A stretch of DNA of 64,000 nucleotides from sequence record OR352956.1; one strand, 5' to 3'. The position numbers were made by a program, and so were the translations under genes. Source of the stretch: Escherichia phage AV126. Each line of letters begins with the position of its first letter. Positions within the stretch are counted from its first letter, which is position 1. Positions 215 through 62,174 of the stretch are shown here, in pieces. A model generated the notes under the pieces. The model had not been told where the DNA came from and did no database searches. It saw nothing but the letters and a program-made list of their open reading frames with translations.

Positions 215-400
215 ATGACTTTAAACGAGCTTAAAACAGCGTACAGCGCAACATTAAAAATAGCCGTGCGTTACCGTGACGAATACGGTTTTATTGCGCA
301 GGGCGTGATCCTGGGCTTTTCTGACGATGGTTTGATCTATGTTGATGCACATTATAACAAGGTTAAACCGGAAAACGTTATTAGCATAAAATATCTTTAA
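215..400 (+). CDS. hypothetical protein (61 aa)
   Basis: ORF with GAGGA SD-like motif upstream; flanked by terminator and next promoter. Confidence 0.5.
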   Translation: MTLNELKTAYSATLKIAVRYRDEYGFIAQGVILGFSDDGLIYVDAHYNKVKPENVISIKYL

Positions 401-485
401 AAACGGTTGACACCATAACCGGACCTGTTAAACTGTATTACATCAGGCGGGGAATAGTTCCCCACCATACAAAAAGGTAAATATT

Positions 486-692
486 ATGATCACCGCAAAA
501 CAAGAAAAAATCATTATCGACGTTGCAGCCGTTGCCGCTATCGCTATTATTGGATCTTATTATGATACCCGTTTCCCGTCGGCTATGCATGAGGTCGCCG
601 CCGTTGCATCAGTTGGCGTACTGTTTTACGTTGGTAAACGCTATTTATCACCAATGATTAACAAGCTGACACCGTGGAAAAATAAAGGTTGA
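486..692 (+). CDS. hypothetical small hydrophobic protein (68 aa)
   Basis: ORF preceded by promoter-like TTGACA and leader hairpin; hydrophobic N-terminal half. Confidence 0.5.
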   Translation: MITAKQEKIIIDVAAVAAIAIIGSYYDTRFPSAMHEVAAVASVGVLFYVGKRYLSPMINKLTPWKNKG

Positions 693-763
693 TCCTGTTT
701 TACATTGTGTTATAGTTATCGTGTAGGGCGGCAATGGTGCCGCGCCCCTTTGAGGATGCAATC

Positions 764-1048
764 ATGAGTAAAGCTAACACCGTGCTAATGTTTTCCCTGA
801 TTAATGATCTCGCTTACTTGTCCAACATGACGCAGGAGGGTAACACATTAACGGCAACATTCACCAATAAGCTTGACCGAGTGATCATCGTCTCACTGAA
901 AACAGTTAGTAAAGGCTTTTACTCGTTAGCTTATCATTGTATCACTGACACCGACGAGACAAGCCAGGACTATAGCGCCCCTTTCCCTGAATCAATGGCA
1001 CGGGAGATCATCGCCGCCGTTGTAAATGATGGTTTGTTTACTGCATAA
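764..1048 (+). CDS. hypothetical protein
   Basis: ORF 734..1048 trimmed to internal ATG at 764, which lies after the leader hairpin and a GAGGA motif. Confidence 0.45.
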   Translation: MSKANTVLMFSLINDLAYLSNMTQEGNTLTATFTNKLDRVIIVSLKTVSKGFYSLAYHCITDTDETSQDYSAPFPESMAREIIAAVVNDGLFTA

Positions 1049-1145
1049 ATAATTTAGAAAAAGGCTTGCAATCATTTTGAGATAGTGTATATTTAATTCA
1101 TAGGGCGGCGGGAATAGTTCCCAAAGCAAACGAGAGGATTACACG

Positions 1146-1265
1146 ATGAGCAAGTACACAGTAGAATACACGGTAGAGAATCCGGCAGTATCCGAAGGTA
1201 AAAAGATGACATTTGCCATCAGTATAATCGCTTTCGTTGTCACTATCTTATCAATCATCTTATAA
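1146..1265 (+). CDS. hypothetical small membrane peptide (39 aa)
   Basis: short ORF with GAGAGGA SD-like motif and hydrophobic C-terminus; below the ORF-track size cutoff. Confidence 0.35.
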   Translation: MSKYTVEYTVENPAVSEGKKMTFAISIIAFVVTILSIIL

Positions 1266-1275
1266 GGTACACACC

Positions 1276-1437
1276 ATGAAAATAGCAGACATTATCAAAG
1301 AGATCGCCCTTGCCACTGGTATCGAGATCGAGGAAGTGATCGCGCTCAATCTTACAGAAAACGATTTGCGCAACTATGAAGCGGAAAGCGTGAAAGCAAG
1401 TGGCGCGGTCCTGGCATATAATCCGGCTAACAAATAG
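1276..1437 (+). CDS. hypothetical protein
   Basis: ORF 1237..1437 trimmed to first ATG (the track start is TTG). Confidence 0.4.
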   Translation: MKIADIIKEIALATGIEIEEVIALNLTENDLRNYEAESVKASGAVLAYNPANK

Positions 1438-1438
1438 T

Positions 1439-1466
1439 TTGACAAGCTGAATCAACCTGATAAGAT
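1439..1466 (+). promoter_or_regulatory. sigma70-like promoter (TTGACA - 16 nt - TAAGAT)
   Basis: consensus -35 and near-consensus -10 upstream of leader hairpin and gene 1518. Confidence 0.55.
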
Positions 1467-1517
1467 GTATGACATAGGGGCGACAAGCGCCCCGCCTAAC
1501 AGAAGAGAGAAAAAATC

Positions 1518-1796
1518 ATGACCATCACCAAATTATCTACCGAAGAGATCACCAACATTCTGACTACTAATCTGCAAGATTGGAAGCGTGAAGCCGATTT
1601 GCAAGCGGTTTGCAAGCTGAATGTAGAGTTAACAGAAAGCGACATTGACGCCATTATTAACCCTGATTTCTATGATGCTATTCATGATGATTCTATTATC
1701 CTTGAAACACTATTAGATAATACTTGGATCAATCCCGATTTGGCAGCTTATGACCGTAGCGCCTTTATCACTATCCACAATATCTATAACCGTTAA
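1518..1796 (+). CDS. hypothetical protein (92 aa)
   Basis: ORF with AGAGAGA SD-like motif; own promoter and leader hairpin. Confidence 0.55.
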   Translation: MTITKLSTEEITNILTTNLQDWKREADLQAVCKLNVELTESDIDAIINPDFYDAIHDDSIILETLLDNTWINPDLAAYDRSAFITIHNIYNR

Positions 1797-1918
1797 GGGG
1801 CGTAGCATGAATCCGAGAGATATGCAATCATGGAAAGGGTGCGACGATCTAAGCGCCTTGCGCAATAAGTCAAGCCGTAACCTTAGACGGTTGGAAGCAA
1901 AGAAAAAGAAAAAATAGT

Positions 1919-1946
1919 TTGACAAGTCGGCTTAGTCTGGTAATAT
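1919..1946 (+). promoter_or_regulatory. sigma70-like promoter (TTGACA - 16 nt - TAATAT)
   Basis: consensus -35/-10 followed by GTAGGGCGGCAATGGTGCCGC leader hairpin. Confidence 0.55.
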
Positions 1947-1995
1947 GTATCTTGTAGGGCGGCAATGGTGCCGCTCACAAGAAGAGAGAAAAATC

Positions 1996-2280
1996 ATGGA
2001 AATCACAAAAAGCCTAACTAATTATGCAGCACGTCGCGGATTATGTTTAACCGTTGAAAACTTAGGGAAAGAAGACTTTTTGTGTTTTTGGGAGCTTGAA
2101 AATGATTGCGAGTGGATGTTTTCCTATTCTATCTGCGAAGATCAAAACGGTTGTTTGTTAACCTGGCGCGGTAATATCTATTTACCGGAAGAAATTAAAG
2201 AAGAGTTACCAGGTACAATCATGACAGAGAGACAGCTTAAGGAAGTGATCAATTTTGTAGGGCAAAACATTAAAAAATAA
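1996..2280 (+). CDS. hypothetical protein
   Basis: ORF 1945..2280 trimmed to ATG at 1996 after leader hairpin and SD-like motif. Confidence 0.5.
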   Translation: MEITKSLTNYAARRGLCLTVENLGKEDFLCFWELENDCEWMFSYSICEDQNGCLLTWRGNIYLPEEIKEELPGTIMTERQLKEVINFVGQNIKK

Positions 2281-2281
2281 T

Positions 2282-2310
2282 TTGACAGCACGCAAACAAC
2301 GTAGTAAAGT
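2282..2310 (+). promoter_or_regulatory. sigma70-like promoter (TTGACA - 17 nt - TAAAGT)
   Basis: consensus -35, 17 nt spacer, -10-like hexamer, followed by leader hairpin. Confidence 0.55.
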
Positions 2311-2365
2311 TTACCACATAGGGCGGCGGAATGGTCCACCGCTCACAACAGAAGAGAAACAAATC

Positions 2366-2536
2366 ATGATCCCGACTATGTTTTATGTATCGCGCAAAGG
2401 TCACAATATTTTTTGGTCTGAAGATTTAAATGAAGCCATGACGTTTGCCCGTGATCGTGTTGCTATCGGTGGCGTTAACATCACCGTAACCGATGAAAAT
2501 GGCATTGAATACTATAACGGCGACGATGAAGAGTAA
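2366..2536 (+). CDS. hypothetical protein
   Basis: ORF 2282..2536 trimmed to ATG at 2366 downstream of promoter, hairpin and SD-like motif. Confidence 0.5.
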   Translation: MIPTMFYVSRKGHNIFWSEDLNEAMTFARDRVAIGGVNITVTDENGIEYYNGDDEE

Positions 2537-2602
2537 TTAATAAGGCGGGGAATACTTCCCGCCACGCAGTGAATTTTCCGTTTGGGAAGTAAAAAATAAA
2601 TC

Positions 2603-2630
2603 TTGACGATAATTTGTTATCTGATAGAAT
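2603..2630 (+). promoter_or_regulatory. sigma70-like promoter (TTGACG - 16 nt - TAGAAT)
   Basis: near-consensus hexamers followed by leader hairpin. Confidence 0.5.
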
Positions 2631-2682
2631 GTATTTCGTAGGGCGGGGCAATAAGGCAACGCCCATTAATGAGGGTAGAATC

Positions 2683-2787
2683 ATGTTAGAGAAAATTTTC
2701 ACGGTTGCAGTAGTTGGCCTGGCGTTATCGGTTGGAGTGGTTGCAACTATGGCTAATATGATCCTATCTTCCCACGGTATCGGCTAA
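2683..2787 (+). CDS. hypothetical hydrophobic peptide (34 aa)
   Basis: short ORF with GAGGG SD-like motif directly after promoter and hairpin. Confidence 0.3.
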   Translation: MLEKIFTVAVVGLALSVGVVATMANMILSSHGIG

Positions 2788-2797
2788 GGTGAAACAA

Positions 2798-3013
2798 ATG
2801 ATCACGAATAAGACAGGTAAAACGGAATTTTTACGCGGCTTGCAAGTTGGTAAACCTGAGATCTGGCATTGTACTAAATCCGCGCATAATGAAATGAAAG
2901 ATTTTACCGCTACTTTACAACGTGTTAAAATATCTATCACACAGAAAAAAGCCTTGTTAGTAGTAGAAAACGAGATCCCGCAAACTATTATTATTGTCGA
3001 GCGTACAGCATGA
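2798..3013 (+). CDS. hypothetical protein
   Basis: ORF 2789..3013 (GTG) trimmed to ATG at 2798; AAGGTG SD-like motif. Confidence 0.45.
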   Translation: MITNKTGKTEFLRGLQVGKPEIWHCTKSAHNEMKDFTATLQRVKISITQKKALLVVENEIPQTIIIVERTA

Positions 3014-3396
3014 AAACAGAAATCATTATTGAAATCATCAACGGTTATAAAGAAGCCTTTATTTTTGCTGAATCAGCAAGGGATCATGAAGGTAATTTTA
3101 TTGAAAACTTAGACGATTATGATTTTTCTCCTAGCGCGGACGAACGGATCGCCCAGGATGTAACAGCCTTTATTAATGCTAATCTTGCCGCTATCTCTGA
3201 GGCAATGAGCGACGGCGCAACAGCCAACCAGATCGGGAATGATTTACATTTTACCCGTAACGGTCACGGCGTAGGCTTTTGGGATCGCCCTGAAATATAC
3301 ACCACTAACACGGCGAACCGCCTAACCAATGCAGCTAAGTTTATGCCGAACGTGTCGGCTTACATTGGTGAAGATAATTTGATTTATATTGAATAA
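3010..3396 (+). CDS. hypothetical acidic protein (128 aa)
   Basis: ORF whose ATG overlaps the upstream stop (ATGA coupling). Confidence 0.55.
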   Translation: MKTEIIIEIINGYKEAFIFAESARDHEGNFIENLDDYDFSPSADERIAQDVTAFINANLAAISEAMSDGATANQIGNDLHFTRNGHGVGFWDRPEIYTTNTANRLTNAAKFMPNVSAYIGEDNLIYIE

Positions 3397-3402
3397 AAAG
3401 TA

Positions 3403-3430
3403 TTGACACAGATCGCCAGTGTGCTAATAT
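3403..3430 (+). promoter_or_regulatory. sigma70-like promoter (TTGACA - 16 nt - TAATAT)
   Basis: consensus hexamers followed by leader hairpin GGGCGGCAATGGTGCCGCC. Confidence 0.55.
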
Positions 3431-3477
3431 TTACCACGTAGGGCGGCAATGGTGCCGCCGATAATGAGGAAAGTAAA

Positions 3478-3777
3478 ATGGAAACTATCGCTATTGTTAC
3501 CGTAGAAAAACTGGTTGTTGGTGATGTATTCGCGTTAATGGTGCCTAACAGCAGCAAGCTGGGCGCTTATGAAGTAATGGATCATAAAAATGAATCATTT
3601 GGCGACGGTTGCACAATGGCGGTAAAATCTTTAAAGGATGGAATCATCCGCCAGGCTAACTGGCACAAAGGGAATCAAGTCGGTTTAATATCAGCTAATT
3701 TCTTGCCAGAAGAGCAAACGTTAGACCAACTATCAGGCGGTAAGACGTTAGCCGAACTACTGGAAACAGCGATCTAA
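3478..3777 (+). CDS. hypothetical protein (99 aa)
   Basis: ORF with SD-like motif after promoter and leader hairpin. Confidence 0.55.
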   Translation: METIAIVTVEKLVVGDVFALMVPNSSKLGAYEVMDHKNESFGDGCTMAVKSLKDGIIRQANWHKGNQVGLISANFLPEEQTLDQLSGGKTLAELLETAI

Positions 3778-3821
3778 TCAACAAAGGGGCGGCAACGCCC
3801 CACATCAGAAAGGAAAAGATT

Positions 3822-4058
3822 ATGAGTATTGCAACAGTATTAAACGCCGTTAAAACCGCTGAATCATCCGGCTTGCATGTTGAGCTTATAGATCAACCAG
3901 GTGGCGATCTCCTTGTCCAGGTTTACCCGCCGAAAGTAGGGGATGATTATTATTGGGCTTATTCTGATACGTTCGAACAAGTAGACACGAAAGCGATCAC
4001 GGCTTTTATTTTAAAAGCTATTGAAGAAAATAACTTTCATCATAACATCAATCAATAA
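3822..4058 (+). CDS. hypothetical protein (78 aa)
   Basis: ORF with AGGAAA SD-like motif; preceded by GGGGCGGCAACGCCCC hairpin. Confidence 0.5.
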   Translation: MSIATVLNAVKTAESSGLHVELIDQPGGDLLVQVYPPKVGDDYYWAYSDTFEQVDTKAITAFILKAIEENNFHHNINQ

Positions 4059-4112
4059 ACCATAAGCGGGGCGGTAACGCCCCATTAAACGCAATAGGAA
4101 GAGGATAGACGC

Positions 4113-4403
4113 ATGAAAAAGATGATCGCAGTAGTTGCCCTGGTTGTTGGTATTAACGCGCCTGTACTGGCTAATGAGTTGCCAGAATCCATCACGCTAA
4201 CCGATATCAACGCAATAAACCGGATCGGCGTTAATTATCGCCTATGCCTTGCCGCTAAAACTTTCCAGGACGGCACGACAGAATACCACGGATTCGAGGG
4301 TATCCGCTGCGGTGAGCTTGCACGCGACCTTAAGGAAGATCCAGACCTTGAGGCCATACCGATGACCGTAAACGGTAAAGCTTACGTAAACCGCCAACAA
4401 TGA
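4113..4403 (+). CDS. hypothetical secreted protein (N-terminal signal peptide)
   Basis: MKKMIAVVALVVGINAPVLA hydrophobic leader with Ala-x-Ala-like cleavage context. Confidence 0.5.
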   Translation: MKKMIAVVALVVGINAPVLANELPESITLTDINAINRIGVNYRLCLAAKTFQDGTTEYHGFEGIRCGELARDLKEDPDLEAIPMTVNGKAYVNRQQ

Positions 4404-4534
4404 GAAAGATAATCATCACAATGGGGATCGTAGTAGCAACGCTGGCGCTTATCCCCTTCATGGTTGAACATGTGCTGATCAGTGTTGTCCTTGTAGTCAG
4501 TGACCTATTGGAAACGGTTGGCAACTGGTTTTAA
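4400..4534 (+). CDS. hypothetical small membrane peptide (44 aa)
   Basis: short hydrophobic ORF, ATGA-coupled to the upstream gene. Confidence 0.35.
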   Translation: MRKIIITMGIVVATLALIPFMVEHVLISVVLVVSDLLETVGNWF

Positions 4535-4787
4535 GATAAATAAACAGGGCTTGTTTTTGTCCTGTTTTTTGTTATACTTATTGAACGGGCGGCACTTGGG
4601 AGCAGGTGAAGATAATCACCGGAAGATCCCGCTATATATCGATAGCTAATACCTATCAAACAACAAAACATCAAAGAGATAAACTATCAAATCTTTACAA
4701 TCCTACCTATTGACACCGGATCACGCTTACATTATTATTTATCACGTAGGGCGAGCAATACAGCAAGCCCACAAAGAGGAAAAGAAG

Positions 4788-5759: not shown

Positions 5760-6299
5760 CCTGAACAATGTTGATAGCTTTCGCCTATGAAAAACCGACA
5801 CAGAACAAAACTGAATAAATCGCGGTATCGAGCTAATCAACCATCAAACGAATAACCATACATCCCAGGGCAACAGGCTGTTAGAGAGCTATTTAGAGCG
5901 GTTAAAATCGATCTACAACCAACAACAAACCATCAAAAACACCCTTTTACCTCCTTTCTAGTGCAATGATAACCATTATCATCTACCCATGATTATCTAT
6001 GCAATATAAGCGCATAATTATAATGTTGATAATAGTTCGCAACAACTAACCAACAAACAACATAAAACAATAAGCAAACTAATCATAATCAAAGGAATAA
6101 TAGCAAGATGATTGATAACGACAAACAATCAAACCATGATGAATACTAAGCAAGATAACGATAACACGACAAAACAACCAACTAACGAACAATAACAAAC
6201 GAAACCATTAAAAGATCAACTATTAGCAAAATAGTGTCTATTGCCATAATAGTGACTGAATGAAATCATTACAAAACGAATCATTCCAAGGATCATCAT

Positions 6300-6460
6300 T
6301 AGCACGCTACGCCGGACACGTAGCGAGCTAATAATAAGCCAACTACACCCCAACAATCATAACCATCGGTGACGGTTATTTCTTGTTACTGCGTAGCTTG
6401 CAATAATTGCAAGCGTAATGACGCTTACACTTATTGCGCTGGCTTATTATTAGCATTATA
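6300..6460. repeat. nested inverted-repeat cluster in non-coding region
   Basis: 15-bp inverted repeat GCTAATAATAAGCCA (6327-6341) / TGGCTTATTATTAGC (6440-6454) enclosing palindrome CTTGCAATAATTGCAAG and hairpin CGCTACG-CCGGACA-CGTAGCG. Confidence 0.6.
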
Positions 6461-7275
6461 TGTAATTACCAAGATCATAACATTAGCGCAATAACAATAA
6501 TCATTACAATAATTACATAAGGAAACAATTAGCATAGCAATAATTATGGGGGCAATGGGAGGATGATTATCATCATTCCGATACATTGCACACTATGCAC
6601 ATAATAAGATAAAAAGCAATAATCTTGGGGGCGAAATGTTACCGCCACAGGCGGGAATGTTGAGCATCTTCTCTTAAACGTAAATAAAATCAGAAAATTC
6701 TTGATTTATTTTAGTTTTTATGTTAATAAACGTTTAAATAATAATCATTCTCATATAAATAATAGTCTGCTTGTCATGAGCGGGATTAGTTGACATTGTT
6801 CCGTCATATGATGAAGTTGCCAAGCCATTGATAAATAAGTGTTTGTGTGATTTATAATCAAGTGGCCCACCTTGTCGCTACGTTGGCATGAGCCTTGCAT
6901 AAGTCATTGAATACGAATGATAATTATTCTCATTCGCATGATATTTGGGAATTGTCGCTGCGTGGACCTGACGGCCCGAAAATTCGCGTTAAGCACTTCT
7001 TACGTATGCGCCATGATTTTTGCCATATCATATTGATTCTATTAGATATTCTTGCCATGATTGCCATGAAACAGGGTGTCCCGAAATAATCTCTCCCCGT
7101 AGATATTTTGGGTTACTTTTTATACAAGAGTGGGGTGTCAAAAATAATCGGTATATATGGGATAATTGATAGGAATCCCCTATGATAATTCGATTGTAAT
7201 TCCCTAAGATTGATCGTATGATGTTGGTGATTGATGATTGCCATGAAAGATGGCTAACGATGAGAGGAGATTATC

Positions 7276-10713: not shown

Positions 10714-11028
10714 ATGTCAGAAGAACTTAAAGAATTTTATCAGGCATATCATAACTGGCTGTTAGCTGGTGCTCCAGATAATAATCCTTTCTGGCATGAT
10801 AAAGGGTTATGTAGTTGCCTCTATCTTTGGTCTGGTGGTTATGATGACCTAAATTATGAAATGCAAATGCAATTCCGCGAAGCAGGTTTGTCTGAAGAAT
10901 ACCCGTTTGATGATGGGGATTGGTTTAAATATGATTTTGCACAAAGAAACGGGCTGCTACATTTAAATGCTGCCCGTATAAAATGGGTAAAAGATCATGC
11001 TACACAGGAGGATGTGCAATGCCTATAG
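10714..11028 (+). CDS. hypothetical protein, paralog family A (copy 2 of 5)
   Basis: AGGAGG SD; conserved GLC...YPF...WVKD pattern. Confidence 0.6.
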   Translation: MSEELKEFYQAYHNWLLAGAPDNNPFWHDKGLCSCLYLWSGGYDDLNYEMQMQFREAGLSEEYPFDDGDWFKYDFAQRNGLLHLNAARIKWVKDHATQEDVQCL

Positions 11029-13695: not shown

Positions 13696-14040
13696 ATGAT
13701 TAAACTTTTATGTGCAGAGTCTTCTGTCGAGTTCCTTAAAGAGGGTAAGCAGTATCTAGCTTCCCAAGTTATAGATAATCCAGGTTTGTTTTATATTACA
13801 GACGAAGAAGGGGATACCCTGTGTATCTCTTTGATTATGGATTGTGGTCGGTTTCATGTAATTGAGGATGACACTATTCGTCTCTTTGAGGTTTCCTACA
13901 CAAAAGACAATGGTCCTGTCCGTAAATATCAAATTCCCGCAAAATCCGCCTTTAACGCATGTGTACGATTAGGTCAAATCTACGGGGACGATAAAGATTG
14001 TCGTGAAGACGTGTTTATCAATGTGATCGAGGTAAAATAA
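13696..14040 (+). CDS. hypothetical protein (114 aa)
   Basis: AAGGAGAG SD; TTGACA promoter-like motif upstream at 13638. Confidence 0.55.
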   Translation: MIKLLCAESSVEFLKEGKQYLASQVIDNPGLFYITDEEGDTLCISLIMDCGRFHVIEDDTIRLFEVSYTKDNGPVRKYQIPAKSAFNACVRLGQIYGDDKDCREDVFINVIEVK

Positions 14041-14366
14041 TGAAAACAAGTAAAGATTTGATGGAGTTTTATAAAATTTATCTAGCATGGATTGATGTTG
14101 GTGCTCCTGATGGTAAACCTTTTCGGCGGGATTGTGGTTTGTGTGCCAACTTGTTCGATTATGTGCACAGAGGTAATTACAACCCCATTATAACAACCTT
14201 ATCAGATGAAATGCACGCACAGTTTTACCATAAAAGGTTGAATCAAGGACTCCCTTTCAATGAGAACTACGATGCATATGTCTTAGAGTCAGATGCAGAT
14301 GCCTGTCACCTGAACGTGGACAGAATTAATTGGGTAAGAGATCGTATTGCAGAGGAGGATGAATAA
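14040..14366 (+). CDS. hypothetical protein, paralog family A (copy 3 of 5)
   Basis: conserved GLC...LPF...H.N.DRI.WV.DR pattern. Confidence 0.6.
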   Translation: MKTSKDLMEFYKIYLAWIDVGAPDGKPFRRDCGLCANLFDYVHRGNYNPIITTLSDEMHAQFYHKRLNQGLPFNENYDAYVLESDADACHLNVDRINWVRDRIAEEDE

Positions 14367-15974: not shown

Positions 15975-16187
15975 ATGAAGGTACATTACCCTCATCCCTT
16001 TGATCCTAAAAACAAAGCCGTAATTCTTCGTCAGTGGCAACGGGTTTGCCGTACTAAATGTCCAATCAATAGCCCACACAATGTAGACAAGGACTATCTT
16101 GGGACATTTATTGAATACACTTACATAGACAAAAACAAGCGTAAACAACATGTCGAGGAATACTGCTTAAGAGTAGAATGGCTGTAA
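15975..16187 (+). CDS. hypothetical protein (70 aa)
   Basis: AGGAGG SD. Confidence 0.5.
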   Translation: MKVHYPHPFDPKNKAVILRQWQRVCRTKCPINSPHNVDKDYLGTFIEYTYIDKNKRKQHVEEYCLRVEWL

Positions 16188-16199
16188 ATAATAAATACC

Positions 16200-16228
16200 T
16201 TGACAAGTGTTTATTCGTTTTGTAAAGT
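16200..16228 (+). promoter_or_regulatory. sigma70-like promoter (TTGACA - 17 nt - TAAAGT) upstream of the recombinase gene
   Basis: consensus -35, 17 nt spacer; partial palindrome AATAAATAC / GTGTTTATT flanks the -35. Confidence 0.5.
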
Positions 16229-16257
16229 GAGAATACAGCAATGGTTTAGGAGTGGTT

Positions 16258-16929
16258 ATGAAAAAGTTTGTTGTTTACAGTCGTCTTTCTAAACAGAAAA
16301 AAGGTGAGGCACAATATGGTATGGAGAGCCAAGAGAATGATATCCGTTACTTCTTAGACTCTGTGCCTGATGCGGAAGTTATTGGTCAATTTTCTGAATA
16401 CTATTCGGGTAAGGGTGATTGGAAGCAACGTAAGGAACTGGTTAAAGCGGTTGAAATGTGTAAAGCTACCGGAGCAACTTTATTGGTAGCTAAAGTTGAC
16501 CGCTTGGGTCGTAACAACGCCTCCGTAGCAACTCTTCTAGAAATGATCGATGTTAAGATAGCCATCATGCCAGACGCAGATAAAATGGTTATACAGCTTC
16601 TGTCTGTTCTGGCTGAACAAGAAGTTAGAGGTATTGCTGATCGTATTAAAAAGGGTCTTGCTGTAGCAAAAAGCAAAGGTGTTTTATTAGGCAGTGCTAA
16701 TCCTAAAACTGCCGCTGCACGTAGAAAAGGAAAAATGGAATACAACTCTGTTAAAGCAGACGCTTTTGCAGAGACATTCCGTGAACGCTTGGAGATCCTT
16801 AGAGATTTAAATACACCTTACAAAACTATTGCTGAAAAATTCAATAGTAAGAAAATAGCAACAGCACGTGGTGGTAAATGGGATGCTAAAACTGTTTCTC
16901 GTTTGTGTGCCAGACTGAACATTAAATAG
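16258..16929 (+). CDS. serine recombinase (resolvase/invertase family)
   Basis: N-terminal catalytic YSRLS serine motif, LLVAKVDRLGRN resolvase signature, C-terminal HTH-like tail; AGGAGTGG SD. Confidence 0.7.
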   Translation: MKKFVVYSRLSKQKKGEAQYGMESQENDIRYFLDSVPDAEVIGQFSEYYSGKGDWKQRKELVKAVEMCKATGATLLVAKVDRLGRNNASVATLLEMIDVKIAIMPDADKMVIQLLSVLAEQEVRGIADRIKKGLAVAKSKGVLLGSANPKTAAARRKGKMEYNSVKADAFAETFRERLEILRDLNTPYKTIAEKFNSKKIATARGGKWDAKTVSRLCARLNIK

Positions 16930-16937
16930 GAGAGGAT

Positions 16938-17360
16938 ATGAAACAAGAAAATGAATCTGTAGATCACTTAATCATGCTGTCAGCCCTTTTTGCCGGATGG
17001 AACGTATTTTTTGAAAATTTGTTCAATTCTGCTACAGATGGTTCCGATTTTATGCGCCAGTTTAAACGACGAACTGTTGAGGACTATGCTTTCTATTCAG
17101 GTCGGATTGAAAAAGGTTACGAAGATACAAATACAACACTCACCATTAAAGTTTTAGATGTGATGTTTAGTGTTATAGATGCTATCGACGAAAGTCTTCC
17201 GATCCTAGACAATTGTAATACGAAAGCCTATGTTTACAAAATAGCTCGTGCTTATGTGTCTGCAAACAGTTGTCTTCTTTCCGCCCAGATTGCCGTGAAC
17301 AATCTTGCCAACTTGTTCGATGAAGGAGAAACTTTTTATGACAATCGATTTGAAGTGTAA
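16938..17360 (+). CDS. hypothetical protein (140 aa)
   Basis: AGGAGAGGA SD. Confidence 0.5.
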   Translation: MKQENESVDHLIMLSALFAGWNVFFENLFNSATDGSDFMRQFKRRTVEDYAFYSGRIEKGYEDTNTTLTIKVLDVMFSVIDAIDESLPILDNCNTKAYVYKIARAYVSANSCLLSAQIAVNNLANLFDEGETFYDNRFEV

Positions 17361-17703
17361 GAGGATTCTTTTAGATTTCTATAATAATTGGTTAGAACAC
17401 CTCCGTCTCTTTCCAAGAGAAAGTGGTTACGCTGATGTTGGCTTATGCCGAGGTCTACGTATGTATATAAGTGATGAATTTCGGGCCGAGCATTCTTTAG
17501 CATATTCTGTTTATGGTATGCAATTAGCCAGTTTTGAAAACGCTGGCTTAGATACAACTTTCCCATTTAACACAGCAAAATCTTTTGAGCAAGAGTGTAA
17601 GGAAAAACGTTGCATGTTTAATGAAAAACGTGTACAGTGGGTTAAGGATCGAGTTAAACAACTGGAACAAGAGTTGGATTTCTTCTATGATGAGGCAGAA
17701 TAA
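17338..17703 (+). CDS. hypothetical protein, paralog family A (copy 4 of 5)
   Basis: ORF 17305..17703 trimmed to ATG at 17338 (GAAGGAGA SD); conserved GLC...FPF...WVKDR pattern. Confidence 0.55.
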   Translation: MTIDLKCKRILLDFYNNWLEHLRLFPRESGYADVGLCRGLRMYISDEFRAEHSLAYSVYGMQLASFENAGLDTTFPFNTAKSFEQECKEKRCMFNEKRVQWVKDRVKQLEQELDFFYDEAE

Positions 17704-18642: not shown

Positions 18643-18981
18643 ATGTATTACACTGAAGACTACATATTGTATAACTTTTTTAAAGGTTGGTTGAAATGGG
18701 CGGAACAAGCTCCTGTCGGAGATTGTGTTTTTCCTTGGGATTCTCGTCAAGGCTTGTGTCGTTGTTTGGAAGATTGGCTTATAACCACAAACTACAATTC
18801 AGAAACTAAGAAATCTACATCAAACAGATTAAAAATGTTATTTGAAGAAGATGGTTTAGATCCAATTTATCCTTTCGGTGCTGAAAGCTTCCACAATGGT
18901 CTTTTTCTTGGCACTCAACATTATGACAAAGATCGCGTAGATTGGGTAAAAGAAAAGGTAGCACAGTATGAATGGGGCTAA
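18643..18981 (+). CDS. hypothetical protein, paralog family A (copy 5 of 5)
   Basis: ORF 18595..18981 trimmed to ATG at 18643 (AAGGAGG SD); conserved GLC...YPF...WVKEK pattern. Confidence 0.55.
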   Translation: MYYTEDYILYNFFKGWLKWAEQAPVGDCVFPWDSRQGLCRCLEDWLITTNYNSETKKSTSNRLKMLFEEDGLDPIYPFGAESFHNGLFLGTQHYDKDRVDWVKEKVAQYEWG

Positions 18982-32346: not shown

Positions 32347-32392
32347 AATCCCTCCTTAAAAATACTCCCTCCGAGAAGGGAGTATAAGTATA

Positions 32393-59039: not shown

Positions 59040-59230
59040 ATGTAGTACTCTGTACTCAAGTACTGTACTCCGTACTAGATTAATAATTATTAAATATTAA
59101 TAATAAATAATTATTAGATCTAACGAACAGGTACAGTGTATCAGAACTGGTACGTACAGATCAACTTCTATCAATTAAAAATAAAATAATAAATTATTAT
59201 AAATAATACTTGATCTATAGATCAGTATGA
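59040..59230. repeat. GTACT-repeat and palindrome cluster in divergent intergenic region (candidate origin or control region)
   Basis: five GTACT units within 59044-59078; perfect palindromes TTAATAATTATTAA (59080-59093) and TGATCTATAGATCA (59211-59224). Confidence 0.55.
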
Positions 59231-60248: not shown

Positions 60249-60323
60249 GGCCCTGTAGCTCAATGGGAGAGCTGTCGGCTCATAACCGATAGGTAGCTGG
60301 ATCGAAACCAGCCAGGGCCACCA
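60249..60323 (+). tRNA. tRNA with CAT anticodon (Met or lysidine-Ile2 type)
   Basis: cloverleaf folded by eye: acceptor GGCCCTG/CAGGGCC, anticodon loop CTCATAA, T-arm GCTGG-ATCGAAA-CCAGC, CCA encoded. Confidence 0.7.
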
Positions 60324-60325
60324 AC

Positions 60326-60400
60326 GTCTTTATGGTGTAATGGATAGCACAGGAGTCTTCTAAACTCTTAGTCAAGGTTCGATTCCTTGTAAAGACACCA
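60326..60400 (+). tRNA. tRNA-Arg (TCT)
   Basis: acceptor GTCTTTA/TAAAGAC, anticodon loop CTTCTAA, T-loop TTCGATT, CCA encoded. Confidence 0.7.
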
Positions 60401-60645
60401 GAACATTTTAACATGAATTAGCTCAAGTGATTTGAACCCACTACTGATCATGGTGGCAGAGAATGAGGCAAGTATGTCAGACATTATAAACAAAGGCCAC
60501 GGTTATATTAGAAGACATAAATGCTCGAAGAGCACCGTTCGTGGAGAACGGGGGTTGGTGGAGTCACCATTCATGGTAAAATGTTTTAAAAAACTATTGA
60601 CAACAAACATTATTTTATGTTAGATTATAAGTATGGAAGGGCAAA

Positions 60646-60727
60646 TCGACGTGGCGACGAAAACGGTCTTGAAAACCGCCGAGCTTGAAAGAGCCTTGGG
60701 AGTTCGACTCTCCCTCCTTCAGCCAGA
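60646..60727 (+). tRNA. tRNA-like element, possibly degenerate tRNA-Ser (TGA)
   Basis: canonical T-arm GGGAG-TTCGACT-CTCCC and candidate anticodon loop CTTGAAA, but imperfect acceptor and D arms; promoter-like TTGACA at 60597. Confidence 0.3.
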
Positions 60728-60729
60728 TT

Positions 60730-60815
60730 AGGTAGATTGGTGAAATGGTAGCCACGACAGTTTGCTAAACTGTAGTCGGAAACGGCGTGTAGGTTCGAGT
60801 CCTACATCTACCGCC
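60730..60815 (+). tRNA. tRNA-Ser (GCT)
   Basis: acceptor GGTAGAT/ATCTACC, anticodon loop TTGCTAA, long variable arm, G discriminator, CCA encoded. Confidence 0.7.
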
Positions 60816-60946
60816 AAGTTCTTTTTAATGTAGCTTACTTTAGCAGAGTAAATCTTCGGCAAGTGGCGGTAACCACTTTACCGATAACTCATAGTTAGTG
60901 GTGCGAACACTGGCTATTTTAAAAAGAATTTAAATATTAGTATTTA

Positions 60947-61034
60947 GGTGAGTTAATTCCGTAGGGGTAGCGGGGCAGACTGTAAATCTGTTATCATTGC
61001 GATTCGGGTGGTTCGACTCCATCACTCACCACCA
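60947..61034 (+). tRNA. tRNA-Tyr (GTA)
   Basis: acceptor GGTGAGT/ACTCACC, anticodon loop CTGTAAA, long variable arm, T-loop TTCGACT. Confidence 0.7.
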
Positions 61035-61040
61035 AATTAA

Positions 61041-61126
61041 GATGAGTTGGCTGAATGGTTTAAGCGGCGGACTGTTAATCCGTGTTCGAAAGAACAATAT
61101 AGGTTCGAATCCTATACTCATCGCCA
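61041..61126 (+). tRNA. type-II (long variable arm) tRNA with GTT (Asn) anticodon
   Basis: perfect acceptor GATGAGT/ACTCATC, Ser-like D arm, anticodon arm GCGGA-CTGTTAA-TCCGT, variable hairpin GTTC-GAAA-GAAC, T-arm ATAGG-TTCGAAT-CCTAT, G discriminator. Confidence 0.55.
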
Positions 61127-61133
61127 GAATTAT

Positions 61134-61211
61134 GGACTTGTAGAGTTAAGGTAAACCCCCCAGTCGCCAATAGGCTTCTGGAATTGCAGGTATCGAATCC
61201 TGCCGAGTCCC
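61134..61211 (+). ncRNA. tRNA-like element, unresolved
   Basis: 7-bp acceptor-like pairing GGACTTG/CGAGTCC and T-arm-like GCAGG...CCTGC but no canonical anticodon arm found by eye. Confidence 0.25.
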
Positions 61212-61217
61212 AGCATT

Positions 61218-61292
61218 GCTCCTATAGTATAATGGCTATTACAACGGTTTTGTAATCCGTGGATCTCTGTTCGATTCAGTGTGGGAGCACCA
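61218..61292 (+). tRNA. tRNA-Thr (TGT)
   Basis: acceptor GCTCCTA/TGGGAGC, anticodon loop TTTGTAA (one mismatch in anticodon stem), CCA encoded. Confidence 0.55.
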
Positions 61293-61565
61293 ACACAACA
61301 TTAAGAGCACTGTGATTGATCGTCGTATCCTGTGCACAAGGTCTGCTCGAAAGACAGTGTTCTTAGTATTGTGTTGATCACAAAAAGAGTCACCCGAAAC
61401 TTGACCGGAGTAGGGTTGGATGGGGAAAAATGAGAAGCGGCTCTCCCATTGACAGCAACGAAGAATAATATTTGACTTTGGTTTTGTATTATTTTAAGTT
61501 AGCTTACCGAACGTAGGGCTAGTCACCCAACGGGATACTCGTCACTGTCCCAATCAATAAAAGTC

Positions 61566-61595
61566 TTGACAACAAATAGTAAAATGTAGTATAGT
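61566..61595 (+). promoter_or_regulatory. sigma70-like promoter (TTGACA - 18 nt - TATAGT) driving the downstream tRNA group
   Basis: consensus -35 and near-consensus -10 about 11 nt upstream of tRNA-Gly. Confidence 0.6.
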
Positions 61596-61606
61596 AAATA
61601 TATAGG

Positions 61607-61680
61607 GCGTTCTTGGTGTAGCGGTAGCATTCCGTCCTTCCAAGTCGGCGGCACGAGTTCGATCCTCGTAGAACGCTCCA
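61607..61680 (+). tRNA. tRNA-Gly (TCC)
   Basis: acceptor GCGTTCT/AGAACGC, anticodon loop CTTCCAA, U discriminator, CCA encoded. Confidence 0.65.
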
Positions 61681-61778
61681 AATTATTTAATAAAGGGTTG
61701 CCAGAAAACTTTCTCTTTTACTCATGGTTTTCTCCTTCTCTCACACTTCTTCTGGTTGCCCTTCATTAAATGATTTAT

Positions 61779-61854
61779 TGGTTTGTAGTGTAGTCCGGTA
61801 GCACACGACACTTTGACTGTCGTAGGTTTGGTTCAAATCCAGACAGACCAGCCA
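61779..61854 (+). tRNA. tRNA-Gln (TTG)
   Basis: acceptor TGGTTTG/CAGACCA with U1-A72, anticodon stem CGACA/TGTCG, loop CTTTGAC, G discriminator. Confidence 0.7.
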
Positions 61855-61859
61855 TATAA

Positions 61860-61936
61860 CGGAATTTAGCTCAGTTTGGTAGAGCATACGCTTTGGGAGC
61901 GTAGGGTCGCAGGTTCGAATCCTGCAATTCCGACCA
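61860..61936 (+). tRNA. tRNA-Pro (TGG)
   Basis: acceptor CGGAATT/AATTCCG, D arm GCTC-AGTTTGGTA-GAGC, anticodon loop TTTGGGA, T-loop TTCGAAT. Confidence 0.75.
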
Positions 61937-61942
61937 ATTTAA

Positions 61943-62016
61943 TGTTTCGTAGTTCAATGGTAGAACCCACGACTGATAATCGTGAGACACAAGTTCGATT
62001 CTTGTCGAAACAACCA
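61943..62016 (+). tRNA. tRNA-Ile (GAT)
   Basis: acceptor TGTTTCG/CGAAACA, anticodon stem CACGA/TCGTG, loop CTGATAA, T-loop TTCGATT. Confidence 0.75.
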
Positions 62017-62018
62017 GT

Positions 62019-62091
62019 TTCCCGTTAGACTTACAGGATAAGAGTTCCACAGCTTATTGTGATGCTGGTTCGAATCCAGCACGGGATACCC
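62019..62091 (+). ncRNA. tRNA-like element, anticodon unresolved
   Basis: canonical T-arm GCTGG-TTCGAAT-CCAGC and acceptor-like TTCCCGT/ACGGGAT, but D and anticodon arms could not be folded by eye. Confidence 0.3.
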
Positions 62092-62094
62092 AAT

Positions 62095-62174
62095 AGCGGG
62101 ATAGAGGAGTCTGGTCGTCCTCGCCAGTTTCATATGCTGGAGATCATCGGTTCGAATCCGATTCCCGCCTCCAA
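62095..62174 (+). tRNA. tRNA-Met (CAT), 1:72 mismatch
   Basis: acceptor AGCGGGA/TCCCGCC with unpaired A1/C72, anticodon stem CCAGT/GCTGG, loop TTCATAT, T-loop TTCGAAT. Confidence 0.6.

What the first reader, a model, noticed from the sequence alone, without database searches (positions are those of the whole stretch)
16200..16929. Small serine recombinase with its own promoter inside a lytic-phage early region
The 223 aa protein carries the catalytic YSRLS serine context, the LLVAKVDRLGRN resolvase signature and a C-terminal HTH-like tail, i.e. a Hin/Gin/resolvase-type enzyme, not a large integrase. It has a dedicated TTGACA-17-TAAAGT promoter flanked by a partial palindrome. In phages such enzymes usually drive DNA inversion switches or resolve replication multimers; here no tail-fibre genes are nearby, so its substrate is unknown.
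Basis: partly seen in the sequence, partly recalled or inferred. Interest (0 to 1): 0.6.

Follow-up and report, generated by a model that had tools for sequence, protein, structure and literature searches.

The report
Conserved serine recombinase in lytic coliphage
The gene is a real, apparently active small DNA-cutting-and-rejoining enzyme (serine recombinase) that nearly all phages of this strictly lytic family keep and express from its own early promoter. It shows no sign of running a DNA-inversion switch, and its DNA target is still unknown.

Summary
Window 16258-16929 (+) encodes a 223-aa serine recombinase (Pfam Resolvase, E=5e-18). All catalytic residues are intact, the AlphaFold model is confident, and a TTGACA-17-TAAAGT promoter lies 58 nt upstream.

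The window is a Phapecoctavirus, a ~150-kb lytic E. coli myovirus with 329-bp direct terminal repeats. Identical proteins are already annotated in GenBank as serine recombinase, resolvase or DNA invertase.

New here:
- The gene is near-universal in Stephanstirmvirinae and under purifying selection.
- It is syntenic as far out as Shewanella phage 1/40 and was moved once, in Phapecoctavirus, to the left-end early region.
- It almost always carries its own sigma-70-type promoter.
- Its C-terminal domain resembles the start of the large-serine-integrase "recombinase domain", not a Hin/Gin helix-turn-helix (HTH).
- Its nearest non-phage relatives sit on tiny plasmids, with dyad sites just upstream.

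The inversion idea is not supported. A 147-kb composite genome has no inverted-repeat pair, and the tail-fibre module is collinear in about 60 genomes. The "partial palindrome" is at chance level and not conserved.

Most likely it is a resolvase-like enzyme acting on phage DNA. The substrate is unidentified. Ordinary in kind, modest interest.

The parts
16200..16228 (+). sigma-70-type promoter: -35 TTGACA at 16200-16205, 17-nt spacer, -10 TAAAGT at 16223-16228
   Evidence: Both boxes are conserved while the spacer diverges in phiWec179 and L006. Analogous promoters lie 53-68 nt upstream in 12 of 14 orthologues.
16248..16252 (+). Shine-Dalgarno AGGAG, 5 nt before the ATG
   Evidence: Read directly from the sequence.
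16258..16929 (+). Serine recombinase CDS, 223 aa plus TAG stop
   Evidence: The protein is 100% identical in about 62 Phapecoctavirus records. Against phage nieznany there are 10 synonymous and 0 nonsynonymous differences; dN/dS is 0.18 against phiWec179.
16258..16677 (+). Catalytic domain plus long alpha-E helix (aa 1-140); the nucleophile Ser11 is encoded at 16288-16290
   Evidence: PF00239 covers aa 5-142. Y7, R9, S11, R58, D81, R82 and R85 are invariant in 57 homologues. The model shows a resolvase fold with a helix at 109-139. Foldseek hits include Sin, gamma-delta resolvase and Bxb1.
16702..16914 (+). C-terminal four-helix DNA-binding domain (aa 149-219), related to the start of the PF07508 'Recombinase' domain
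   Evidence: Weak PF07508 hit at aa 187-216. Several homologues carry precomputed PF07508 hits. Helices at 149-172, 175-183, 188-197 and 210-219. This domain is far more divergent between genera than the catalytic domain.
16190..16215 (.). 26-bp partial palindrome over the -35 box; judged not functional
   Evidence: 9 of 13 arm positions are complementary, a level reached about once per 620 nt. It is not conserved and has no partner.
32347..32392 (-). Empty ancestral locus: the intergenic spacer, with a terminator hairpin at 32364-32383, where Justusliebigvirus, the Klebsiella relatives, L013 and Shewanella phage 1/40 carry promoter plus recombinase
6663..6991 (.). Single collapsed copy of the 329-bp direct terminal repeat, i.e. 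the genome ends. It is a candidate location for a duplicated recombination site, but only by inference.
   Evidence: The first 329 nt of Schickermooser are identical to its last 329 nt and map here. A 328-bp repeat is reported in PMC6563267. A 343-bp DTR is annotated in phi92. Sequence blocks are conserved across genera.

Best explanation
Shown. The gene encodes a catalytically competent small serine recombinase. It has a resolvase-type catalytic domain and alpha-E helix, followed by a four-helix DNA-binding domain related to the first part of the large-serine-recombinase 'recombinase domain'. It is a vertically inherited, near-universal gene of the lytic Stephanstirmvirinae and some distant relatives. 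It is under purifying selection and carries its own host-type (sigma-70) promoter, so it should be made right after infection. In Phapecoctavirus it was moved once, from a conserved PhoH-phosphatase gene cluster to the left-end early region.

Inferred. It most likely works as a resolvase-like enzyme, recombining two copies of a simple site in direct repeat (deletion or fusion). Its likely substrate is the phage's own intracellular DNA. Possible roles are reducing multimeric or circular replication forms to units, or joining or circularising DTR-ended genomes. It does not appear to flip an invertible segment. The site itself was not identified.
For: Identity and activity:
- Pfam, PHROG and PDB hits.
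- Y7, R9, S11, R82 and R85 are invariant, and an acidic residue (E47) sits at the position of D36. These match the six residues found crucial in Tn3 resolvase: Y6, R8, S10, D36, R68, R71 (PMC2794168).
- AlphaFold model with pLDDT 89 and Foldseek hits to Bxb1, Sin and gamma-delta resolvase.

Selection and inheritance:
- 10 synonymous against 0 nonsynonymous changes versus nieznany; dN/dS 0.18 versus phiWec179.
- 167 phage records carry the protein, roughly 125-135 of them Stephanstirmvirinae. That compares with 132 records whose major capsid protein is at least 80% identical.
- The flanking synteny is shared by alia, L007, L011, L013 and Shewanella phage 1/40.

Early expression:
- Promoter conservation.
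- Position 9.6 kb from the left end.

Resolvase-like rather than invertase-like:
- The nearest non-phage relatives (35-40% identity) are on 5.7-6.4-kb non-mobilizable plasmids.
- Those plasmid genes have long non-coding upstream regions with dyads of crossover-site geometry: L091 has 16-nt arms with a 2-nt spacer, and L093 has repeated TGTAACA half-sites.
- No inverted-repeat pair exists in a 147-kb composite genome.
- The tail module is collinear in about 60 genomes.
Against: - No res-like or crossover site was found next to the gene. Only the promoter boxes are conserved upstream.
- No patch of unusual synonymous conservation lies inside the gene.
- No repeated dyad family exists in the genome apart from terminators and promoter/stem-loop cassettes.
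- A lytic phage that packages from concatemers has no obvious need for multimer resolution.
- Classical resolvases need supercoiled circular substrates and accessory sites, and none is seen here.
- The DNA-binding domain diverges strongly between genera, whereas the DTR blocks are conserved. This argues against those blocks being its target.
- The best DTR dyad (6911-6939) has an odd 1-nt spacer and changes geometry in phiWec190 and phi92.
Confidence: 0.4

Rival explanations
1. DNA invertase (Hin/Gin/Cin-like) that flips a phage segment, for example to switch a host-range or expression state.
For: PHROG 125 is named 'DNA invertase', and several GenBank records use that label. Phage-borne small serine recombinases classically do this (established knowledge: Mu Gin, P1 Cin).
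Against: - No pair of inverted repeats appears in the window or in the 147-kb composite genome, other than a bidirectional terminator and one AT-only self-palindrome.
- The 25-kb tail and tail-fibre module aligns as one collinear place in about 60 Phapecoctavirus records.
- The protein is 223 aa with a PF07508-like tail rather than the ~190-aa HTH_7 architecture.
- The gene was relocated about 16 kb within the genome without any segment accompanying it.
Confidence: 0.08
2. The enzyme targets non-phage DNA (host chromosome, a resident prophage, a satellite or a plasmid) as an early takeover or conflict function.
For: - It has an immediate-early-type host promoter in every lineage.
- In Phapecoctavirus it sits among small early genes of unknown function.
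- No cognate site was detectable in the phage genome.
- The DNA-binding domain evolves fast between genera that infect different hosts.
- A 30%-identical copy lies in a variable accessory region of only some ICP1 isolates.
Against: There is no positive evidence for a host site. The gene is retained across phages of Escherichia, Klebsiella, Shewanella and Vibrio, which would require a target in each host. There are no PADLOC hits and no linked partner gene.
Confidence: 0.2
3. A selfish or moron-like mobile gene, a minimal serine-recombinase element that moves itself and gives the phage no benefit.
For: The gene occupies two different loci in sister genera. In each it is a compact 'promoter plus gene' insert between conserved neighbours. 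The surrounding early region is highly mosaic.
Against: - Only one relocation is seen. Everywhere else the locus is syntenic, down to Shewanella phage 1/40.
- The gene is near-universal in the subfamily.
- Purifying selection is strong.
- There are no terminal repeats or element ends.
- The domain order is opposite to that of IS607-type transposases.
Confidence: 0.07
4. A domesticated DNA-binding protein (regulator or architectural factor) that no longer recombines DNA.
For: No recombination site was found. Resolvases commonly double as repressors of their own promoters (established knowledge: Tn3/gamma-delta).
Against: Every catalytic residue is invariant across 57 homologues that reach down to about 30% identity. 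That is not expected if catalysis were dispensable. No operator-like dyad is conserved at the promoter.
Confidence: 0.08

Closest known systems
Tn3 / gamma-delta resolvase and Sin (small serine resolvases)
   Same: Catalytic-domain fold and the catalytic residues, the long alpha-E helix, and N-terminal catalytic plus C-terminal DNA-binding order. A promoter lies immediately upstream of the gene.
   Different: Only about 20-25% identity. The C-terminal domain is a longer four-helix unit related to PF07508 rather than HTH_7. No multi-subsite res was found next to the gene. The host replicon is a linear DTR-ended lytic phage, not a transposon or plasmid.
Uncharacterised 'recombinase family protein' genes of small plasmids (e.g. 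Klebsiella pIIIF7SW-P1_2, Marinovum pMaD11, Synechococcus pIITB3_2)
   Same: Same subfamily: 35-40% identity over the full length and the same C-terminal domain type. The size is similar.
   Different: The plasmid genes have 140-680-nt non-coding upstream regions with dyads or repeated half-sites. The phage gene has only a 70-nt promoter spacer. That the plasmid proteins are multimer resolvases is itself an inference.
Large serine integrases (Bxb1, phiC31, A118/LI)
   Same: Best Foldseek hit to the whole model is Bxb1, 9iu2_A. The tail matches the start of the PF07508 recombinase domain.
   Different: 223 aa against more than 450 aa. It lacks the rest of the recombinase domain, the zinc-ribbon domain and the coiled coil. 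The phage has no lysogeny module, and phapecoctaviruses are described as lytic (PMC5374246, PMC10282059).
Hin/Gin/Cin/Pin DNA invertases
   Same: A small serine recombinase encoded by a phage; the PHROG label is 'DNA invertase'.
   Different: No inverted crossover sites, no invertible segment, no adjacent tail-fibre genes and a different DNA-binding domain.
P1 Cre/loxP (functional analogy only)
   Same: A phage-encoded site-specific recombinase that can cyclise terminally redundant incoming DNA and resolve dimers (established knowledge). The genome here has terminal repeats and the enzyme is made early.
   Different: Cre is a tyrosine recombinase of a temperate plasmid-prophage. No lox-like site has been identified here.

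Membership tests
Serine recombinase superfamily (PF00239 catalytic domain) | Significant match to the Resolvase catalytic-domain profile | tested here: met
   PF00239 E=5.2e-18, 66 bits against a cutoff of 23.3, covering aa 5-142.
Serine recombinase superfamily (PF00239 catalytic domain) | Catalytic residues equivalent to Tn3 Y6, R8, S10, D36, R68, R71 (PMC2794168) | tested here: met
   Y7, R9, S11, R82 and R85 are invariant. E47 (E or D in homologues) sits at the D36 position. D81 and R58 are also invariant.
Serine recombinase superfamily (PF00239 catalytic domain) | Resolvase fold with a long alpha-E helix | tested here: met
   AlphaFold2 pLDDT 89 with a helix at 109-139. Foldseek probability 1.00 to Sin, gamma-delta resolvase, TP901-1 and Bxb1.
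Serine recombinase superfamily (PF00239 catalytic domain) | Site-specific cleavage and rejoining through a phosphoserine link | not testable with these tools
   Needs biochemistry.
DNA invertases (Hin/Gin/Cin/Pin) | Two near-identical ~26-bp crossover sites in inverted orientation flanking a segment next to the gene | tested here: not met
   No such pair in the window or in the 147-kb composite genome (self-BLAST, word size 11). The promoter palindrome has no partner.
DNA invertases (Hin/Gin/Cin/Pin) | Both orientations of a segment seen among isolates | tested here: not met
   The 25-kb tail/fibre module is collinear as a single place per record in about 60 genomes. Other regions were not examined systematically.
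DNA invertases (Hin/Gin/Cin/Pin) | ~190 aa with a C-terminal HTH_7-type domain; Fis-dependent enhancer | tested here: not met
   223 aa, no HTH_7 hit, and a PF07508-like four-helix tail. The enhancer was not testable.
Tn3/Sin/plasmid-type resolvases | A res site with crossover and accessory subsites adjacent to (usually upstream of) the gene | tested here: not met
   The upstream spacer is only 70 nt and only the -35 and -10 boxes are conserved. There is no embedded conserved element in the gene.
Tn3/Sin/plasmid-type resolvases | Two sites in direct repeat on one replicon | tested here: inconclusive
   No repeated candidate site is seen in the unit genome. The 329-bp DTR would duplicate any site it holds, but no convincing site was identified there.
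Large serine recombinases (phage integrases) | More than 400 aa with a full recombinase domain, zinc-ribbon domain and coiled coil | tested here: not met
   223 aa. PF07508 matches only profile positions 19-48 of 102, at E=0.003, below the cutoff. The model ends after a four-helix domain.
IS607-type serine transposases | N-terminal HTH followed by a C-terminal catalytic domain; an element that moves between sites | tested here: not met
   The catalytic domain is N-terminal. The locus is syntenic across distant phages, with a single relocation.

The most novel reading that the evidence does not exclude
The recombinase acts on a site inside the 329-bp direct terminal repeats. That site is automatically present twice, in direct orientation, on every injected genome. 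Acting immediately after infection, the enzyme would circularise the incoming DNA or join it head-to-tail. This would be a Cre/lox-like cyclisation or concatemer-junction step carried out by a serine enzyme in a strictly lytic phage, independent of host RecA and protective against RecBCD.
Probability: 0.12. Interest if true: 0.65.

Novelty: new member of a known kind. Interest (0 to 1): 0.3.

Why it matters
Phapecoctaviruses and phi92-like phages are widely proposed for phage therapy. Safety screens flag "recombinases" as lysogeny markers. At least one genome report for this genus states that no specific recombinase is present (PMC5374246), although the gene is there, and GenBank labels it inconsistently: hypothetical protein, resolvase, DNA invertase, and, for the neighbouring ORF, a spurious "ABC transporter".

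Showing that it is a conserved, catalytically intact core gene of a lytic lineage, and not an integrase, clarifies that issue.

Biologically, it poses a tractable question: what does a virulent phage with terminal repeats need a site-specific recombinase for? If the target is the genome ends or a host element, that would add a new step to lytic phage DNA metabolism or host takeover. It would also yield a compact recombinase-and-site pair for engineering.

Tried and rejected
1. Inverted and direct repeat search in the window and self-BLAST of a 147-kb composite genome built from the window plus Schickermooser. Only terminators, one AT-only palindrome and promoter/stem-loop cassettes turned up.
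2. Scan for dyads with 14-nt arms and 0-6-nt spacers. There were 22 hits against 2-8 in shuffles, but they are mostly terminators. The DTR dyad at 6911-6939 has an odd spacer and is not kept in register in other genera.
3. Motif counts for the DTR words ATTCTCAT and TTGTCGCT. Neither is enriched.
4. It is at chance frequency, not conserved and has no partner.
5. Search for an embedded cis-element through synonymous-site conservation. The profile is flat.
6. Inversion polymorphism in the tail-fibre module. None was seen. The megablast output for the early region shows only indel mosaicism.
7. Neighbouring genes. All are of unknown function (Pfam and PHROGs). There are no PADLOC hits. Distant loci have no recurrent partner gene.
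8. NCBIfam. Only sub-threshold hits to YneB, XisF, Mpi and Ccr.
9. Rfam. Only tRNAs.
10. Literature. There are only annotation-level remarks and no experiments on this protein. The phi92 genome paper (PMC3457257) was not available.
11. The idea that the gene hops like a homing gene was rejected after synteny mapping.

Full report
**What is there**

Window 16258-16929 (+) is an ORF of 223 codons plus a TAG stop. It is preceded by AGGAG at 16248-16252.

The protein matches Pfam Resolvase PF00239 (E=5.2e-18, aa 5-142) and, weakly, PF07508 'Recombinase' at aa 187-216. It also matches PHROG 125 'DNA invertase' and PHROG 95 'integrase'. By sequence it matches Tn3 resolvase, gamma-delta resolvase, Sin and Gin in the PDB.

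In alignments of 22 and 57 homologues reaching down to about 30% identity, Y7, R9, S11, R58, D81, R82 and R85 are invariant. Position 47, which aligns with Tn3 D36, is always E or D. These correspond to the residues shown to be crucial in Tn3 resolvase: Y6, R8, S10, D36, R68, R71 (PMC2794168).

An AlphaFold2 model built on the 57-sequence alignment is confident, with mean pLDDT 89. It shows the resolvase alpha/beta catalytic fold, a long helix at 109-139 and a four-helix C-terminal unit at 149-219. Foldseek against the PDB returns Bxb1 integrase first, then Sin, gamma-delta resolvase and TP901-1 catalytic domains.

**Which genome this is**

The region is 98-99% identical to about 62 Phapecoctavirus genomes (Stephanstirmvirinae). 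These are ~150-kb E. coli myoviruses such as ZCKP1, nieznany, UP17 and phAPEC8.

The protein is 100% identical in most of them. It is annotated there variously as hypothetical protein, serine recombinase, resolvase, DNA invertase or recombinase family protein. So the identity of the gene is already in the public record.

The literature I could reach contains only annotation-level comments. One paper guesses 'resolvase for concatemers' without data (PMC10282059). One genome announcement states that no specific recombinase is present (PMC5374246).

**Genome ends**

Phage Schickermooser has a reported 328-bp terminal repeat (PMC6563267). In its record the first 329 nt equal the last 329 nt, and they map to window 6663-6991. 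phi92 has an annotated 343-bp left DTR.

The window therefore spans the junction of the genome ends. The recombinase gene lies 9.6 kb inside the left end, in a run of small same-strand genes of unknown function.

**Promoter**

TTGACA-17-TAAAGT is present at 16200-16228. The total number of such consensus matches in 12-24 kb equals the shuffle expectation, so the match alone is weak evidence. Two further observations make it credible.

First, in phiWec179 and L006, where the protein is 74-75% identical, the -35 and -10 boxes are conserved while the spacer and flanks have diverged.

Second, 12 of 14 orthologues carry a comparable site 53-68 nt upstream of the start codon. These include orthologues at a different genomic locus and from Klebsiella, Shewanella and Vibrio phages. 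From, the chance of such a match in a 130-nt stretch is roughly 0.16.

The 'partial palindrome' (16190-16215, 9 of 13) is not special. Dyads that good occur about once per 620 nt. Its right arm is not conserved, and nothing in the genome resembles it beyond shuffle level.

**Evolutionary behaviour**

At first sight the gene looks mobile. In Justusliebigvirus (alia) it lies between homologues of the window genes at about 32.4 kb and 32.15 kb, in the minus-strand PhoH-phosphatase cluster. There it is a compact promoter-plus-gene insert. The window has only a terminator hairpin at that spot.

Mapping more loci changes the picture. The alia-type position is shared by L007, L009, L011 (a Klebsiella-type relative), L013 (39% identity) and, more loosely, Shewanella phage 1/40 (35% identity). 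So this is the ancestral position, and Phapecoctavirus, including the phiWec group, made a single relocation to the left-end early region.

The gene is near-universal in the subfamily. 167 phage records carry the protein, about 125-135 of them Stephanstirmvirinae. By comparison, 132 records have a major capsid protein at least 80% identical. rV5-like relatives lack it.

Selection is purifying. There are 10 synonymous and 0 nonsynonymous differences against nieznany and 3 against 0 for UP17. dN/dS is 0.18 against phiWec179. The catalytic domain is much better conserved between genera than the DNA-binding tail.

**Search for a substrate**

I built a 147-kb composite unit genome from the window and Schickermooser.
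- Self-BLAST found no inverted-repeat pair other than a bidirectional terminator and one AT-only self-palindrome. The only repeat family is a set of direct promoter plus 5' stem-loop cassettes at the right end.
- A dyad scan gave mostly terminators.
- The 25-kb tail/tail-fibre module is collinear, one place per record, in about 60 genomes.
- No synonymous-site conservation peak lies inside the gene.

The DTR region contains several blocks conserved from Phapecoctavirus to phi92. One is an AT-rich dyad at 6911-6939. However, that dyad has a 1-nt spacer, changes register in the other genera and looks more like a Fur box. Conserved DTR blocks also fit poorly with a fast-evolving DNA-binding domain.

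No site can therefore be named. One caveat matters. Because the virion DNA is terminally repeated, a site inside the DTR would exist in two direct copies without appearing as a repeat in the unit genome. 'No paired sites' is therefore not a refutation.

**Relatives outside phages**

The closest plasmid homologues (35-40% identity, full length) are on very small, non-mobilizable plasmids of 5.7-6.4 kb from Klebsiella, Marinovum and Synechococcus. There the gene follows a 140-680-nt non-coding region carrying dyads of crossover-site geometry. Examples are 16-nt arms with a 2-nt spacer at L091 4323-4356, and repeated TGTAACA half-sites in L093.

On such replicons the obvious role is multimer resolution, though that is an inference. 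No curated NCBIfam model claims the protein, and it has no PADLOC match.

**Interpretation**

Firm conclusions:
- It is an active-looking small serine recombinase of a subfamily whose DNA-binding domain resembles the start of the large-serine-recombinase recombinase domain.
- It is a conserved, early-expressed core gene of a lytic phage lineage.
- It is not an integrase, not an IS607-type transposase and not demonstrably an invertase.

The best mechanistic guess (about 0.4) is a resolvase-like deletion or fusion reaction on phage DNA: unit-length resolution of replication forms, or end-joining or cyclisation.

Rivals are:
- action on host or other resident DNA (about 0.2);
- invertase (about 0.08);
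- selfish cassette (about 0.07);
- a non-catalytic regulator (about 0.08).

**Verdict**

The kind of gene is known and already annotated. What is unexplained is why a virulent DTR phage lineage maintains it. Interest is modest.

Noticed in passing
window 5800-7275: A 1.5-kb non-coding stretch holds the physical genome ends, with the DTR at 6663-6991. Several sequence blocks are conserved from Phapecoctavirus to phi92. They include the terminus itself, the DTR right edge (GAAAATTCGCGTTAAGCAC) and a block just outside the DTR at about 7100-7191. That last block is the only part still detectable by blastn in Justusliebigvirus.
   Followed up: partly
window 6919-6937, 6559-6577, 5962-5980; L094 (phi92) 74-92; L095 (phiWec190) 695-713: Fur-box-like 19-mers (consensus GATAATGATAATCATTATC) lie in and beside the terminal repeat. 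They match 17 of 19 positions in phi92 and phiWec190 and 15 of 19 in the window. This could mean host Fur binds the phage ends, or it could simply be an AT-rich dyad used by a phage protein.
   Followed up: partly
window 400-4760 (and Schickermooser 141.9-147 kb, L089): At least 12 direct copies of a cassette made of a strong promoter (TTGACA-17-TAATAT-like) followed by a GC-rich 5' stem-loop (GTAGGGCGGCAATGGTGCCGC). They resemble the PeSL cassettes of T4-type phages. The same early region is highly mosaic between otherwise 96%-identical phages: 8-17 alignment pieces and 63-94% coverage.
   Followed up: partly
window 32347-32392 (-): A terminator hairpin occupies exactly the spot where sister genera carry the promoter plus recombinase cassette.
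   Followed up: yes
window 59079-59116: A 36-38-nt palindrome made only of A and T sits at the strand-switch region just before the tRNA cluster. It may be an origin or a divergent-promoter element.
   Followed up: no
window 60249-62170: A cluster of 11 tRNA genes on the + strand.
   Followed up: no
window 15975-16187: The 70-aa ORF just upstream of the recombinase is a DUF7202 protein. Many GenBank records mislabel it as 'methionine ABC transporter ATP-binding protein'.
   Followed up: partly
window ORFs 14040-14366, 17338-17703, 18643-18981 (and one ending near 11012): A small paralogous gene family (PHROG 2510, VOG7392) is scattered through the early region on both sides of the recombinase. 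Their conserved 3' ends form direct repeat family D1.
   Followed up: no
L005 (ICP1 isolate 2017_DRC_48) 3001-3756: A 30%-identical small serine recombinase, also with its own TTGACA promoter, lies in a variable block between gp30 and gp41 that only some ICP1 isolates carry. I found no literature on it.
   Followed up: partly
GenBank records MG0656xx 'Campylobacter phage' B15, C3, A150, A110a; 'Acinetobacter phage' vB_AbaM_ABPW7: These records are near-identical to E. coli Phapecoctavirus or Justusliebigvirus genomes. Their host labels look doubtful.
   Followed up: no
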